UHGV virus genome: UHGV-0099111
Length of the DNA: 13,865 nt
Reading direction: 5' to 3' (one strand)
Source: a virus
The position numbers were made by a program. Positions within the stretch are counted from its first letter, which is position 1. Every line of letters starts with the position of its first letter. Positions 3,001-9,000 of the stretch are shown one piece after another.

Positions 3001-6000
3001 AACGTTGATGTTGTTTGGCTTCAGCACGGCACTTCGTTAAATGGAGCGAATGATGAAGATACTCTTTCATTTGTTGGCAAATTAAAAAAAGGGTTAGTGC
3101 GCGTGGTTGGTGAGGCAATTCTTGGTGTTGATGGTGCCATCGAGATGACCGAAGAGCGCGATGGGTGGCTCAAGATTTATAGCGATGATCCAGATGCCTT
3201 TGGTCTTCGTGTGAAAGGAGACAGCATGTGGCCCAGAATAAAATCAGGAGAATATGTACTCATTGAGCCTAACACCAAAGTATTCCCGGGTGATGAGGTG
3301 TTTGTCAGAACCGTTGAAGGACACAACATGATCAAAGTTCTTGGCTATGACAGAGACGGAGAATACCAGTTTACAAGCATCAACCAGGACCATAGGCCAA
3401 TAACGTTGCCTTATCATCAAGTAGCAAAGGTGGAGTATGTGGCTGGTATTCTGAAGCAATCTCGCCATCTGGATGACATCGAGGCAAGGGAGTGGCTGAA
3501 AAGTTCGTGACTTCATCGTCACATAGCTGATAGCCAATGGCCTGAAGAGACGTTTGGGTGATAAGAGAATATCTGATAGTAGGCGTGGTTACTTTGCTCT
3601 CGGTTGTTGCGATCGTGCTTATGGTGGCCTGATGAGGTGTTTGGTTATCAGGAGTACGCATGAGGATAGGTATTGCTTTTCCGGTGATAGTGTTCATCGT
3701 GGCTGTGGCGTTTATGGCGTGGTTTGTCGTGGGTGGGTATGCGACGCCGGGTGGTTGATGAGACGTTTGGGTGAGATTGATGATGTAAGAGAGGTCGCAG
3801 AGATGCGGCCTTTTTTTTAATTGTCAAAACTCACAACCACGCACCCATGAGAATCTTTTTTTCACTCATGGCAATCATGACATTGACTCACACCACTTCT
3901 TTATGCCAGGATCATTTCAATCCAGAAAATCCTGGAAAATGATCTACTTAGGTGGAATATGCAACTTCTAACGAAAGAAAAGTTCTTTAGCTTTGTTGAG
4001 AACTACGAGCGCCTAACAGCGTCCAGTTCCAGAACAGCAGAGAATATTCAGTCGGTATGTCAACGCGTTGAGGTTTTTATACCTTCTGATTCACCTGCTG
4101 ATGCATGGGATGTACAAGGCATCGTTGATAGATATGCAGAGACCGTATCACTCAGTGAGGACAGCAAACGTTCATATAGCAGCCGCTTCAATAGCGCTGT
4201 ATCAAAGTTCATTGCTTATGAGAAAGGGGAAGATGTGAAGGCTAAGCCAAAGCCAAAGCGTCAACGTTCTGCTACAACAAAGCCTGTAGAGGAAAACTCA
4301 GTGAAGACTTTTGAATTGCCAATCCCATTGCGGGGCGATCTAATTGTCAACATTGGCAACCTACCTCGCGACCTCACAAGGGAAGAGGCAAAGCGGATCA
4401 GCAATATTATTGAGTCGTTTGCAATGTTTGACGATCTCACAAAAGAATAAAGCCCCGTTTGCAGCGGGGCTTCATAAGTGGAAGTTTTGGAAACTTCCTG
4501 AGTACAGGTTAACTGTTACCCACTAACTTAGACAATTAGAGGATAACGGTTGGCCGGGGCAAACGCAAGACTGTAAGGGATTACAGTCTGGGTTTAAATA
4601 CAGGTAAATCGTTATGATGGCACATGATGTAAATCGTGATGACTATATCTACGAACACGACAAACCGGTTTATGTGCGCAGCTACTGCCGCGTACGTTTC
4701 GGTGAACTCGAAAATGTTCGTCAGCACTTTCGTTCATATCCGAACTGCTGAGTAAGTATTGTCTAACCAGCCCGGCCTCAGCGCCGGGTTTTCTTTGCCG
4801 CACGATCCCCATCTAAAGACACATAACCAATTGTATTTATTTCAAAATTAATAGATACAACTCACTAAACATCGCAATTCAGATCTCTCGATCACCTTCC
4901 AAGCCACACCCCCCTGCAAAATATAACCCCATAAAATACAAAACGTTATAAAAAACTAATCATATTTAGAACATTTTGTATTGACTCAATAAAGTACACA
5001 TCGTACTATTTAGCCATCAGCAGGACGCACTACTCACCAGGGCGGTGAATATACAACGATTCAGAGATGAATCTACGAGGCTGAAAAGCCTAATAACCAA
5101 AGTGAACTTTGGGATGCGATGAAATGCAGCCCGTTGAGGCAAGCCGAAGATAAGCACCGGCCATTGCATCACCAAAGTTCATCAGGAGGTCACTATGACA
5201 CGCAGAACAGCTTTCAATGGCTCAGCATCAGGTCGTCGTCGTGAGCGTCGTGCAGCGCTCCAGAATGAGATTACGGCAAGCTCAGAAGTATTACACCGCC
5301 CTACTCTAAGCAGAGCGCAGATTCAGGCTAAAGGTACTCACGAAACGCCTGAGCGCATAGAAGACGCTAAGCCAATTAAGTTCATGGCACAGGACGTGAT
5401 CTGGCAACAGAAAGAATACAGACGCAATCTGGAGCGAGCGGCCATTGTGTACGCGAATGAGTTTGGACATAAGCAACCAGAAACTGGTGTATGTCTTCCA
5501 AACGTAGCCATTTACGCGGCAGGCTACCGGAAATCAAAACAACTGACGGCGAGGTGACTTGTGTTGGTCGCCAGAAGCAACGCGGAAAATCAATTCCAGC
5601 TTATTACGATTGAGGTGGTCATGCTCAAGAAAGTCAAACGCCGACTTTACAAAGAAGGTAGATATTCATGCCAGTTGCCAAAATGCGACACAACAAAATG
5701 GAGTGTCGATGATTGGTGTAACTGGATAGATAGATACGGAACTTGGTGGGATAAATAACAGGTAACTTAAGCGTATTTACTTTCGCGGCAAACCACTTAT
5801 TTGAGGTGATATATGGAAGAAGAATTTGAAGAGTTCGAAGAGCATCCGCAGGATGTGATGGAAAAATACCAGGACTATCCGTATGACTGCGACTATTGAT
5901 AAGAATCAATGGTGTGGGCAATACGAGCGGCGGCAATGATTGCCGGATGTGGCGCTTTACGCCACTGGACATCGCAGCAGAAAATCGGTTACGGCGCGTT

Positions 6001-9000
6001 AATTAACTTATGAGGTGAGGCAGTGACATACCAAGAAGCACGAAGAATTGTGGTTGCTGCGCAGGACGAGGTTGTAAGACTTAATGATCGGCTCTGCAAC
6101 ATGCATCGTCACTGGATTAAAAATGGCCTATGCGATTCAGTGGCTTCATTAATTAAGCAGCATGAAGCTGCTGTTGAAAAATGGAATGAAGCGAAGTCCG
6201 TTATGAACTCTCTTTCTCATCAGAAATAGACCCGCTCCGGCGGGTTTTTTATTGCCTGAACTAACCGAATTTATTACAGCAAGCCACGTAGTGAAATGGG
6301 GTTGACTTGTGTTGGTCGCCAGAAAATAAAATTAGGCAGCAAACCACTTATTTGAGAGCTGATACATGAGAGTAAAAACTATGGGCGCAAGCCCATTAAG
6401 CGGTCGTATTTTTCAAGGAACATTAAACACTGAAAAAGGAATGTGGGTAGGAAAGAGAGAAGATGTCACCGATCAGGCAGTTAGGGCAGTAGCCGAACAC
6501 ATGATGATAAAAGACCAGAAATATGCATACGAAACGAAGGATGGCAAATGGCTGATAATAAGTCATCAACTGGTTGATAAATTACCAGAAGAGTTTGTTG
6601 ATGGTTAAATTTGCTTTGGCATAAACAACAGAGGTGGATATGAAAGAGTTTAAGGGTACGCCTGGTAAATGGAAGTACACGGTTAGAAACGTCAACGAGA
6701 TGATGACTACGTTCCATGGTGTGACGATTGGTGACACATACATTGAAGCAGCAACAAGAAATGAAAGGGAGGATGCGCTACTGATAGCAGCAGCTCCTGA
6801 CCTTCTCGAAGCACTTCAGTTATTACTTAAGCAAACCAAAAATAGAACAACGACAACATATCCAGAATGGTATGGAGCGGTTAATAAAGGTCTCGCAGCA
6901 ATCAGAAAAGCTCTTGGGGATAAGTAATGAAAGTAAAAATAACTGCTTCTAATACCAGTTTTGTTAGTGTTGGTGATATTACAGAAGTAATAACAAACCA
7001 TGATGGAACACAAGTTATGTGGTCTGATTTTTGTAAAAGATATGAGCGAGTCACTTGGTGTAAACTCGTATGGGGAGTCGAATACGAAGAATTACCTGAA
7101 ATGCATGACGAATAAGCACTGTGTATTCATTCCAACGAGTGAATACACGGAGCAATGTCGCTCGTAACTAAACAGGAGCCGACTTGTTCTGATTATTGGA
7201 AATCTTCTTTGCCCTCCGATGTGAGGGCGATTTTTTTGATGGAGGATATATGAGTGAAGTAACAGATTTAGTTGTTATTGAAAAAGCAAATGCAATGACT
7301 GTATTTCAGTCTGCCGACCAGATTGAAGAAATCCTTCAAAAGGTTGAACGTGAAGTTATGTCCTTTGTGCCTGATATCACAACGGCAAAGGGCAGAAAGG
7401 AGATCGCTTCTCTGGCGTATAAAGTTGCGCAGACGAAAACATATCTCGATGGTCTTGGAAAAGACCTTGTTGCTGAACTGAAGGAAATTCCAAAGCTAAT
7501 TGATGCCAACCGCAAGACAGTGCGTGATCGCCTTGATGAGCTGAAATCCAAGGCACGCCAGCCTCTTACTGATTATGAGGAGGAACAGACACGGATTAAA
7601 GCCGAAGAAGAAGCTAAGGCAGCAGCTGAAGCTCTCGCAAAGCAAATTGAGTCTGACCATGAAATAGCGATTTTGATGGATCGCGAATTTGACCGCCAAA
7701 GAGAAGAGGCAAGACTCAAAGCGGAGCAGGAAAAGCGAGAGCATGAAGAACGCTTAAAAAGAGAAGCTGAAGAGAAAGCCAGATCAGAAGCCGAAGCAAA
7801 GGCAAAAGCCGAAATTGAAGCAGCAGCAAGGCGAGAAGCAGAAGCTAAGGACGCAGCGGAACGTGCAGAGCGTGAACGTATTGAAGCCGAGCAACGAGCA
7901 CAGCGCGAAGCAAAAGAGGCAGCAGAACGAGCTGAAAGAGAAAAGCAGGCGGCAATTGAAGCAGAACGCCGAAAAGCACAGGAGGAGGCTGAACGAATCC
8001 GGCGCGAGGCTGAAGCAAAAGAGCAAGCCAGAATAGCAGAAGAAAAAAGAATCAAGGAAGAAGAAGAGTGTAGAGCAAAGGATAAAGCTCACCGGAAAGA
8101 AGTAAATAACAAAATACTTGCTGACATTATCAAGGTTGGTGCATCAGAAGATGTTGCTAAAAATATCATAACAGCCATCGTAAAAGGCGAAGTATTCGCA
8201 ACAAAAATAACCTACTAATAAAACCAACATAAGGAACCACCCATGATTTACGCAATCGCGGGAGGAGCTCGCATGGGTGCCTTCCAATTAAATGAATCTT
8301 TACTTGAACGAATCACCCGTAAATTACGTGACGGATGGAAAAGAGTTGAGGTCTTATTATGCGCAATGAAATAGCCATCAATCACCAGATGCTTCGTGCA
8401 GCACAAAACAAAGCAGTAATAGCAAGATTTATTGGTGATTCCAAAATGTGGCTTGAAGCAAATAAAGCGATGAAATCAGCTATCAACATTCCGTGGTATC
8501 GCAGGAAATGAGTTTTACAGATAACTGGTCAGACGAAGAATTCATTCGTCAGATGAAAGAATTAATCGGTAACTAAGGAGATATTCATGTCACTTGCAAC
8601 CACAGTGAAGGAGAGCAAGTTACAGAGACGCATGTACACGCAGAAAGCTCTCTGGTATCGCCATAATGGTGACCGCGAAGGAATGCGGGTATGCCTTAAT
8701 TTGTCCCGAGTCGAAGTATTAAATCAGCGTTATTTCCTTGGGCCGCGTCCATTCTGAGGTGAATTATGGATTTGAATAAATTCGATGAGCCATTCAGCCC
8801 TGAAGATATTGAATGGCGAATACAGCAAAGCGGTAAAACACGCGATGGCAAAGTGTGGGCTATGGTGCTGGCTTATGTCACGAACAGGGCAATCATGAAA
8901 CGCCTGGACGATGTTTGTGGCAAAGCAGGATGGCGCAATGAATACCGCGATATTCCCAACAACGGCGGAGTTGAATGCGGCATATCAATCAAGATTGATT

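What the first reader, a model, noticed from the sequence alone, without database searches (positions are those of the whole stretch)
5561..7115. Run of six or more small ORFs (28-97 aa) between N and the coiled-coil gene
This is the region where lambdoid phages carry host-takeover and exclusion functions. It includes a 28-aa polyacidic peptide (MEEEFEEFEE...) and a Cys/Trp-rich 45-aa ORF, with internal and terminal intrinsic terminators that N should override. None matches a family I recognise.
Basis: partly seen in the sequence, partly recalled or inferred. Interest (0 to 1): 0.4.

Follow-up and report, generated by a model that had tools for sequence, protein, structure and literature searches.

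The report
Stacked accessory gene cassettes after phage N
The run of small ORFs is real but ordinary: it is the swappable accessory part of a lambda/P22-like prophage's early-left operon, made of three catalogued but uncharacterised gene cassettes joined end to end, including a broken anti-restriction gene (ral), and it ends at a known small RNA.

Summary
Six small ORFs (28-95 aa) lie on the + strand between N (5195-5557) and the coiled-coil gene (7251-8218). All have Shine-Dalgarno sites, recur intact in many enterobacterial prophages, and show dN/dS of 0.18-0.44.

The claim that none matches a known family is wrong:
- The 45-aa Cys/Trp ORF is DUF5484 (Sf6 gp36).
- The 28-aa acidic peptide is lambda orf28.
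- The 34-36-aa ORFs after it are artefacts of a ral pseudogene (103-nt frameshifting deletion, 3' end replaced).
- The 80-aa ORF is DUF7446.
- The 95-aa ORF is Phage_P22_Y8K6.
- The 68- and 62-aa ORFs match PHROG families.

The region is three alternative "post-N" cassettes stacked in tandem. Each cassette sits directly after N in other phages. Here they are separated by 3'-end remnants of two other N alleles and by duplicated linker sequences.

The internal terminator (6228-6253) belongs to the 68-aa cassette. The real terminal terminator (7209-7237) is lambda tL2a, the 3' end of the sRNA PreS/LPR1. PreS is identical to lambda here apart from two loop bases.

No protein function could be assigned. 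The kind of region is known and this is a new combination. Interest is low.

The parts
4981..5009 (+). PL-like promoter (TTGACT, 17 nt, TACTAT), overlapped on its upstream side by an operator-like inverted repeat (4935-4982)
   Evidence: The only + strand promoter-like site in 4700-7400. Inverted repeat I2. Its position upstream of N matches Sf6 and HK544. Function is inferred.
5078..5091 (+). Candidate nutL boxB hairpin (AGGCUGAAAAGCCU)
   Evidence: Predicted as a hairpin in the fold of 5040-5110. The surrounding sequence is 89% conserved in L015 and L120, which carry a related N allele. The assignment is an inference.
5195..5557 (+). N antiterminator, 120 aa, complete
   Evidence: PF25694 N_peptide, E = 3.5e-20. 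phrog_271.
5555..5576 (+). Linker D1, copy 1 (TGACTTGTGTTGGTCGCCAGAA); it begins at the N stop codon
   Evidence: Exact 22-nt direct repeat with 6303-6324. Present after different N alleles in 42 loci.
5621..5758 (+). O1: 45-aa Cys/Trp-rich protein, DUF5484, homologue of Sf6 gp36 (annotated as T4 55.4-like)
   Evidence: PF17583 at 46.7 bits against a cut-off of 27. phrog_1871. 100% identical to Sf6 gp36. dN/dS 0.24.
5785..5805 (+). Linker D2, copy 1 (GCGGCAAACCACTTATTTGAG); together with the Shine-Dalgarno site just downstream it forms a shared translation leader
   Evidence: Direct repeat with 6336-6356. The same leader precedes at least 10 unrelated ORFs in 64 loci.
5813..5899 (+). Homologue of lambda orf28 (28-aa acidic peptide); it overlaps the ral start as in lambda
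   Evidence: 26 of 28 residues identical to lambda orf28. phrog_16060. 26 intact copies in loci, dN/dS 0.18. Non-essential in lambda (PMC10695390).
5883..5944 (+). ral pseudogene: 5' 32 nt, a 103-nt internal deletion between TGGRCAAT repeats that shifts the frame (stop at 5937-5939), and the 3' end lost
   Evidence: Alignments to lambda, Sf6 and HK544 ral. The same deletion joint is present in 9 IMG/VR contigs. A gene caller found an 18-aa Ral fragment in L118.
5941..6002 (+). Remnant of the last ~20 codons and stop of a second N allele (PDVALYATGHRSRKSVTAR*), joined to ral through a TGCC microhomology
   Evidence: Aligns to the 3' end of the intact N of L015 and L120, which is followed directly by O4.
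6023..6229 (+). O4: 68-aa protein from a narrow orphan family that sits directly after N in relatives
   Evidence: phrog_15857. 17 clusters at 90% identity and 4 clusters at 50% identity among 1.84 billion representatives. Follows N in 8 of 8 contexts shown. dN/dS 0.24.
6228..6253 (+). Intrinsic terminator belonging to the O4 cassette (also scores on the - strand); proposed tL1 equivalent
   Evidence: Terminator scan. Folding z = -4.15. The stem and U-run are kept in nearly all of about 27 relatives (weakened in L030/L032), with changes mostly confined to the loop, and sequences diverge straight after the U-run.
6263..6305 (+). Remnant of the 3' end of a third N allele (HK544/Sf6 type)
   Evidence: Aligns to the N 3' ends of HK544, Sf6 and L012 at 82-92% identity.
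6303..6356 (+). Linker D1 copy 2 and D2 copy 2 at the canonical 36-nt spacing, as found directly after N in HK544 and phage 21
   Evidence: 36-nt spacing in 29 loci.
6366..6608 (+). O5: 80-aa DUF7446 protein
6640..6927 (+). O6: 95-aa Phage_P22_Y8K6 (XkdD/Y8K6) family protein with a conserved N-terminal 60 aa, a hypervariable tail and a conserved C-terminal AAIxKALGxE
   Evidence: PF27050 is recorded for near-identical proteins. phrog_1273. N-terminal 60 codons: pS about 0.5, pN about 0.05; 23 different tails. Only the C-terminal helical hairpin is modelled with confidence.
6927..7115 (+). O7: 62-aa protein, translationally coupled to O6 (TAATG)
   Evidence: phrog_10407. 34 intact copies, usually directly after an O6 homologue. 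dN/dS 0.29.
7116..7249 (+). Conserved boundary sequence (Sf6 'bsq4') containing the homologue of lambda sRNA PreS/LPR1 (about 7150-7237) and terminator tL2a (7209-7237)
   Evidence: Sf6 annotates bsq4 and tL2A here. 7118-7237 is identical to lambda apart from 2 loop bases. Strongly structured, z = -4.9. Lambda LPR1/PreS lies between ral and ea10 and ends at tL2a (bioRxiv 10.1101/2024.10.31.621285).

Best explanation
The 1.55-kb stretch is the hypervariable accessory segment of the PL (early-left) operon of a lambdoid / P22-like prophage.

Structure (shown). It is a tandem stack of three alternative 'post-N' cassettes. Each cassette sits directly after N in other phages.
- Cassette 1: D1 linker, DUF5484 gene, D2 linker, lambda orf28 homologue, and ral. 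Here ral is dead: it has a 103-nt frameshifting deletion and its 3' end has been replaced.
- Cassette 2: the last ~20 codons of a second N allele, a 68-aa orphan gene, and its own intrinsic terminator.
- Cassette 3: the last ~14 codons of a third N allele, D1 and D2 linkers, a DUF7446 gene, a Y8K6-family gene, and a 62-aa gene.
- The stack ends at a conserved boundary sequence that encodes the sRNA PreS and terminator tL2a.

Origin (inferred). Recombination at short conserved linkers (D1, D2, bsq4) and at microhomologies swaps and accumulates these cassettes.

Expression (inferred). All six intact ORFs are translated from the PL polycistronic mRNA. Without N, transcription would stop at 6228-6253. 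N, O1, orf28 and O4 would therefore be immediate-early genes. O5-O7, PreS and the downstream coiled-coil, cIII, kil and erf genes would need N antitermination.

Function (not shown). The proteins are dispensable accessory factors. By position, the most likely role is host takeover or counter-defence, as for ral, kil and cIII.
For: - Operon context: N (PF25694), then cIII, Kil, a Rad52-type annealing protein and SSB downstream. Synteny with Sf6, HK544 and mEp043.
- Family matches for all six ORFs.
- orf28 identity and the ral deletion.
- N remnants and duplicated linkers.
- Each cassette occurs alone directly after N elsewhere: O4 in 8 of 8 contexts; the D1-D2-orf28-ral arrangement in HK544; the D2 leader precedes O5 as well as at least 9 other ORF types, and O5-O6-O7 follow N in L036, L037 and L042.
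- Combinatorial occurrence across 121 loci.
- Purifying selection on all six ORFs.
- The whole block 5781-7236 is 99.45% identical in another prophage (L118) whose upstream and downstream flanks differ.
- Terminators. No internal + strand promoter was found.
- The literature describes most P22-like early-left genes as of unknown function and highly mosaic (PMC8022706).
Against: - No expression data are available. N-dependent readthrough and the boxB assignment are inferred.
- A promoter-like TTGACT, 19 nt, TAAAAT at 6301-6331 could drive O5-O7 independently of PL.
- No function could be attached to any ORF: PADLOC, NCBIfam, PDB sequence and fold searches were all negative.
- dN/dS values are pooled against the window and are not phylogenetically independent.
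- The exact three-cassette joint was not found in GTDB representative genomes or in complete E. coli genomes, so it is rare.
Confidence: 0.78

Rival explanations
1. The ORFs are chance open frames in a non-coding spacer or regulatory leader between N and the next real gene.
For: The ORFs are very short (28-95 aa).
Against: All six match protein families. They are kept intact in diverged relatives (down to 29-72% identity), with third-position bias and dN/dS of 0.18-0.44. They have Shine-Dalgarno sites.
Confidence: 0.03
2. The segment, or its distal half O5-O7, is a moron-type lysogenic-conversion or superinfection-exclusion unit. It would be expressed from its own promoter in the prophage and would protect the lysogen, like sieB or rexAB.
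For: An upstream terminator (6228-6253) followed by TTGACT, 19 nt, TAAAAT (6301-6331) lies ahead of O5 (read). sieB occupies the N-ral interval in lambda and P22.
Against: The promoter scan found no + strand site inside the region, and the spacer is a non-optimal 19 nt. There are no SieB, PADLOC or other defence-family hits. In relatives the same genes sit directly after N with no intervening terminator.
Confidence: 0.1
3. The region is a decaying, non-functional part of a defective prophage: a pile of recombination debris under no selection.
For: ral is a pseudogene. There are two N-gene fragments and duplicated linkers. O4 starts with GTG here where relatives have ATG.
Against: Six ORFs are intact. 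The identical block is carried by a second, otherwise different prophage. The flanking N, cIII, kil, erf and ssb genes are intact.
Confidence: 0.07

Closest known systems
Lambda N-ral-tL2a-ea10 interval (orf28, ral, PreS/LPR1, tL2a)
   Same: Same operon position. orf28 is 26/28 identical and overlaps the ral start. About 120 nt containing PreS and tL2a are identical to lambda apart from 2 loop bases.
   Different: ral is inactivated. There is no sieB. Five additional small genes absent from lambda are inserted. The gene after tL2a is a coiled-coil gene (Sf6 gp33 type), not ea10.
Shigella phage Sf6 / P22-like early-left operon (genes 37 to 33, boundary sequence bsq4)
   Same: N, then gp36 (100% identical to O1), then orf28/ral, then bsq4/tL2A, then gp33, cIII, kil and an annealing protein. 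95-98% nucleotide identity in the shared parts.
   Different: Sf6 has an intact ral and gene 34. It lacks O4, O5, O6, O7 and the N remnants.
Lambdoid 'boundary sequences' at mosaic joints (the Sf6 GenBank record annotates such a feature, bsq4; attribution of the concept to Clark et al. 2001 (HK620) and Casjens et al. 2004 (Sf6) is from my own knowledge)
   Same: Short conserved non-coding linkers flanked by unrelated genes. D2 precedes at least 10 different ORFs, D1 follows different N alleles, and bsq4 is annotated in Sf6.
   Different: Here two of the linkers are duplicated inside one genome, which documents accumulation of cassettes rather than simple replacement.
Phage morons (gene plus own promoter and terminator inserted between operon genes; Juhala et al. 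2000, from my own knowledge)
   Same: O4 travels as a compact unit of Shine-Dalgarno site, ORF and terminator, with a sharp sequence break after the U-run.
   Different: No promoter was detected upstream of O4. It appears to depend on PL.

Membership tests
Lambda orf28 (lambdap47) | 28-aa acidic ORF directly upstream of ral and overlapping its start; sequence similarity to lambda orf28 | tested here: met
   26/28 identical, with the same overlap with the ral ATG. phrog_16060, E = 1.4e-17.
Ral anti-restriction protein (PF11058) | Intact ORF of about 66 aa | tested here: not met
   A 103-nt frameshifting internal deletion and a replaced 3' end leave an 18-codon frame. This is a pseudogene.
DUF5484 (PF17583; Sf6 gp36) | Score above the Pfam gathering threshold | tested here: met
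   46.7 bits against 27. 100% identical to Sf6 gp36.
DUF7446 (PF24233) | Score above the Pfam gathering threshold | tested here: met
   100.3 bits against 24.1. All 61 homologue clusters carry PF24233.
Phage_P22_Y8K6 (PF27050; NCBI 'XkdD/Y8K6 family') | Match to the PF27050 model | tested here: met
   The model is not in the local Pfam copy. The precomputed PF27050 assignment is recorded for the 100%-identical protein P0018 and all listed homologues, and the family name is given.
Lambdoid boundary sequences | Short conserved non-coding sequence at a junction whose flanks are unrelated between phages | tested here: met
   D2 precedes at least 10 unrelated ORFs in 64 loci, and D1 follows different N alleles. 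7116-7228 corresponds to the annotated Sf6 bsq4.
PreS/LPR1 Hfq-dependent sRNA of lambda | At least 92% identity to lambda LPR1 (the paper's criterion); GC-rich hairpin plus poly-U (tL2a) at the 3' end; location in the early-left operon | tested here: met
   Identical to lambda across 7118-7237 apart from 2 loop bases. Terminator confirmed. Criterion and location.
PreS/LPR1 Hfq-dependent sRNA of lambda | Expressed as an RNA of about 88/68 nt, bound by Hfq, activating dnaN | not testable with these tools
   Needs a northern blot, RIL-seq or reporter assays.
Moron | Own promoter and own terminator | tested here: inconclusive
   The terminator after O4 is present and conserved. No promoter-like site was found by the scan. 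Only a weak candidate with a 19-nt spacer lies ahead of O5.
SieB / known anti-phage defence proteins | Match to SieB or to any PADLOC model | tested here: not met
   No Pfam SieB hit. No PADLOC hit for any of the six ORFs.
N-nut antitermination | N protein plus a nutL boxA/boxB between PL and N | tested here: inconclusive
   N is confirmed. A boxB-like GAAA(A)-loop hairpin lies at 5078-5091, but no boxA consensus was identified and there is no functional test.

The most novel reading that the evidence does not exclude
One or more of the intact cassettes is an unrecognised counter-defence or host-takeover factor. The best candidates are:
- O4, an orphan that always sits directly after N and ahead of the first terminator, so it would be made with N before antitermination.
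- O6 (Y8K6 family). Its N-terminal 60 residues are under strong purifying selection, while its 25-40-residue tail has been swapped among at least 8 unrelated versions. That pattern would fit a specificity module tracking variable host targets.
Probability: 0.25. Interest if true: 0.5.

Novelty: new member of a known kind. Interest (0 to 1): 0.2.

Why it matters
It matters little on its own. The result turns a list of 'unknown small ORFs' into a precise map of six genuine, catalogued accessory genes, one dead ral gene, two N-gene scars, duplicated recombination linkers and a known regulatory sRNA.

The window is a clean worked example of how lambdoid phages accumulate accessory cassettes, rather than only exchanging them, at the N-proximal hotspot.

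It also points to three small protein families worth including in anti-defence or host-takeover screens: the O4 orphans, DUF7446, and Y8K6 with its variable tail.

Tried and rejected
- A weak PDB sequence hit of O6 to RNA polymerase beta' residues 1225-1286 (E about 0.045). The domain i-Evalue is 45, so I treat it as chance.
- PDB sequence searches for O1, O4, O5 and O7 found nothing meaningful.
- The O6 model was poor in its invariant N-terminal 40 residues (pLDDT 35-44), and its fold search was uninformative. The afdb50 library was unavailable.
- NCBIfam and PADLOC gave no hits for the six ORFs.
- Rfam at gathering thresholds gave no hit anywhere in the window, so PreS is evidently not in Rfam 15.
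- tblastn of O4 against the cultured-phage collection gave no match. The family is found in prophages and metagenomes only.
- An exact search for the ral/N-remnant joint in GTDB representative genomes gave 0 hits. A literature search for DUF5484 and DUF7446 gave 0 papers, and a search for Y8K6, XkdD and 55.4 returned nothing relevant among the papers listed.
- The 112-aa minus-strand ORF 5634-5972 crosses three unrelated modules, so I rejected it as spurious.

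
Full report
**Context.** The window is the early region of a lambdoid / P22-like prophage.
- Replication genes lie on the minus strand (337-2030), with 24-nt iterons at 1586-1653. They are followed by cII-like, cro-like and cI-like genes.
- On the plus strand there is a PL-like promoter at 4981-5009 and N at 5195-5557 (PF25694, E = 3.5e-20).
- The finding lies next. After it come a 322-aa coiled-coil gene (7251-8218, the Sf6 gp33 type), cIII (PF02061), kil (PF06301), a Rad52-type annealing protein and SSB.
- Synteny with Sf6, HK544 and mEp043 is clear.

- Six + strand ORFs are genuine: O1 5621-5758 (45 aa), orf28-like 5813-5899 (28 aa), O4 6023-6229 (68 aa), O5 6366-6608 (80 aa), O6 6640-6927 (95 aa) and O7 6927-7115 (62 aa).
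- Each start has a Shine-Dalgarno-like motif, and O6/O7 overlap as TAATG (sequence).
- All six hit PHROG families at E = 1e-17 to 1e-45.
- Across 121 related loci fetched from IMG/VR, GenBank and public assemblies they recur intact in many different combinations.
- Differences from the window are concentrated at third codon positions, and pooled dN/dS is 0.18-0.44. These values are pooled and not phylogenetically independent, but the direction is unambiguous.

**What the ORFs are.**
- O1 is DUF5484 (46.7 bits against a cut-off of 27). It is 100% identical to Sf6 gp36, which that record annotates as similar to T4 55.4.
- The 'polyacidic 28-aa peptide' is the homologue of lambda orf28. It is 26/28 identical and overlaps the ral start exactly as in lambda. 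A CRISPRi study scored orf28 as non-essential in lambda (PMC10695390).
- The sequence immediately after it is ral, but ral is dead here. The ATG is at 5883 and the first 32 nt are conserved. A 103-nt deletion between two TGGRCAAT repeats then shifts the frame (stop at 5937-5939), and ral homology ends at 5944. The same deletion joint occurs in nine IMG/VR contigs, where the ral 3' end is still present.
- The 34- and 36-aa ORFs that the mechanical list shows at this position are by-products of this scar. They match no family.
- O5 is DUF7446 (100.3 bits), with 61 homologue clusters in Enterobacterales and Aeromonas.
- O6 belongs to PF27050 Phage_P22_Y8K6, called 'XkdD/Y8K6 family' by NCBI.
- O4 and O7 have only PHROG families. 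A profile of O4 homologues (alignment) found four clusters at 50% identity among 1.84 billion representative proteins, so O4 is a narrow enterobacterial prophage orphan.

**Architecture.** No phage or complete E. coli genome contains more than 57% of 5100-7300 in one place. The reason is that the segment is a stack of three cassettes, each of which sits directly after N elsewhere.
- A 22-nt sequence, D1, begins at the N stop codon (5555) and recurs exactly at 6303. A 21-nt leader, D2, at 5785 recurs at 6336.
- Window 5941-6002 aligns to the last ~20 codons and stop of a different N allele, the one in L015 and L120. In those loci that N is followed 20 nt later by O4. The join to ral uses a TGCC microhomology.
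- In eight of eight contexts retrieved for the exact O4 protein, O4 follows an N gene (PF25694 or PF11438 alleles) directly.
- Window 6263-6305 aligns to the 3' end of a third N allele (HK544/Sf6 type). It is followed by D1 and D2 at the canonical 36-nt spacing seen in 29 loci.
- D2 precedes at least ten unrelated ORFs in 64 loci. It therefore behaves as a shared translation leader and recombination linker. This is the 'boundary sequence' idea attached to the Sf6 annotation, which labels window 7116-7228 as bsq4.
- The composite block 5781-7236 is 99.45% identical in another assembly (L118, GCA_050786245.1). That prophage lacks O1, has a different N, and has different genes downstream. The stack is therefore inherited and moved as a unit and is not an assembly artefact of this window.

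**Terminators and the sRNA.**
- The internal terminator (6228-6247 plus a U-run; z = -4.15) starts at the O4 stop codon. It is conserved in nearly all O4 relatives (the stem is weakened in L030/L032), with changes mostly confined to the loop, and the sequences diverge immediately after the U-run. O4 and its terminator therefore form one cassette.
- The hairpin directly after O7 (7116-7153) has no U-run. The real terminal terminator is at 7209-7230 plus a U-run.
- This region is strongly structured (z = -4.9). Positions 7118-7237 are identical to lambda apart from two loop bases.
- In lambda this is tL2a and the Hfq-dependent sRNA LPR1/PreS (about 88 nt, processed to about 68 nt). PreS is expressed in the lytic cycle, activates dnaN translation and aids phage DNA replication (bioRxiv 10.1101/2024.10.31.621285). 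The paper's own conservation criterion (at least 92% identity) is met.
- Rfam has no model for this RNA.

**Mechanism.**
- Shown: the gene content, the scars, the linkers, the terminators and the selection on the frames.
- Inferred: PL drives one polycistronic transcript. Before N accumulates, RNA polymerase stops at 6253, giving an immediate-early RNA that encodes N, O1, orf28 and O4. N-modified polymerase reads on through O5-O7, PreS/tL2a and the coiled-coil, cIII, kil and erf genes.
- The boxB candidate (AGGCUGAAAAGCCU, 5078-5091) is only a candidate.
- The protein functions are unknown. By position the most likely role is dispensable host-interaction or counter-defence. The P22-like literature states that most early-left genes have no known function (PMC8022706).

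**Function searches that failed.**
- NCBIfam, PADLOC and PDB sequence searches gave nothing.
- O6 is modelled confidently only as a C-terminal helical hairpin.

**One feature worth noting in O6.**
- The N-terminal 60 codons show pS of about 0.5 but pN of about 0.05. Residues 61 to about 86 fall into at least eight unrelated versions of different length, and the last ten residues (AAIxKALGxE) are conserved.
- In mEp043 the same tail as in this window is attached to a different N-terminal half.
- The central LIAAAPDLLEAL motif is therefore a swap point on both sides.

**Verdict.** The kind of thing (accessory cassettes at the N-proximal hotspot of lambdoid PL operons, exchanged at boundary sequences) is known, and this is a new combination. 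Interest is low (0.2). The most novel reading not excluded is that O4 or O6 is a counter-defence factor (probability about 0.25).

Noticed in passing
window 7118-7237 (+): Homologue of the lambda Hfq-dependent sRNA PreS/LPR1, ending at terminator tL2a. It is identical to lambda apart from 2 loop bases, although the genes on both sides differ from lambda. It coincides with the Sf6 'bsq4' boundary sequence.
   Followed up: yes
window 3959-4450 (+), with a terminator at 4769-4790: A 163-aa ORF (phrog_2602, no Pfam family) plus a strong terminator lies between cI and PL, the position of rexAB in lambda. Relatives carry other cargo there, including a HipA-like pair and DUF7946/DUF7947. This looks like a second variable hotspot, possibly expressed in the lysogen.
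   Followed up: partly
window 6301-6331 (+): In the second D1 copy the N-stop context GTGACT has become TTGACT. With a 19-nt spacer and TAAAAT this makes a weak promoter-like site ahead of O5. The scan did not flag it because it allows only 16-18-nt spacers.
   Followed up: no
window 5883-5944; loci L006-L014: The same 103-nt ral deletion joint, between TGGRCAAT repeats, occurs in nine other viral contigs with otherwise normal ral flanks. It is either a recurrent slip or a circulating dead allele.
   Followed up: partly
window 6640-6927; alignment A5; L122 1603-1899: Y8K6-family proteins have an almost invariant N-terminal 60 aa, a hypervariable tail of variable length and a conserved C-terminal decapeptide. 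mEp043 gp46 combines this window's tail with a different N-terminal half.
   Followed up: partly
window 6023: O4 starts with GTG in this window (and presumably in L118), whereas the aligned relatives (L015, L016, L024) have ATG at the same position.
   Followed up: no
window 1586-1653: 2.8 copies of a 24-nt repeat lie inside the 281-aa replication-initiator-like gene (the protein repeat is VSKLET). These are probably origin iterons.
   Followed up: no
window 5492-5557 and many loci: Only the last ~22 codons of N are shared (73-95%) with many otherwise different N alleles. There is therefore a mosaic joint inside N as well as at its stop codon.
   Followed up: no
window 10444-11076 and 11342-11818 (+): Two ORFs share a '...LALLDE...(L/I)AELE' coiled-coil-like motif and look Ead/Ea22-like. 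Further downstream, 13615-13815 looks like an AlpA/excisionase-type small DNA-binding protein. Both are judged by eye only.
   Followed up: no
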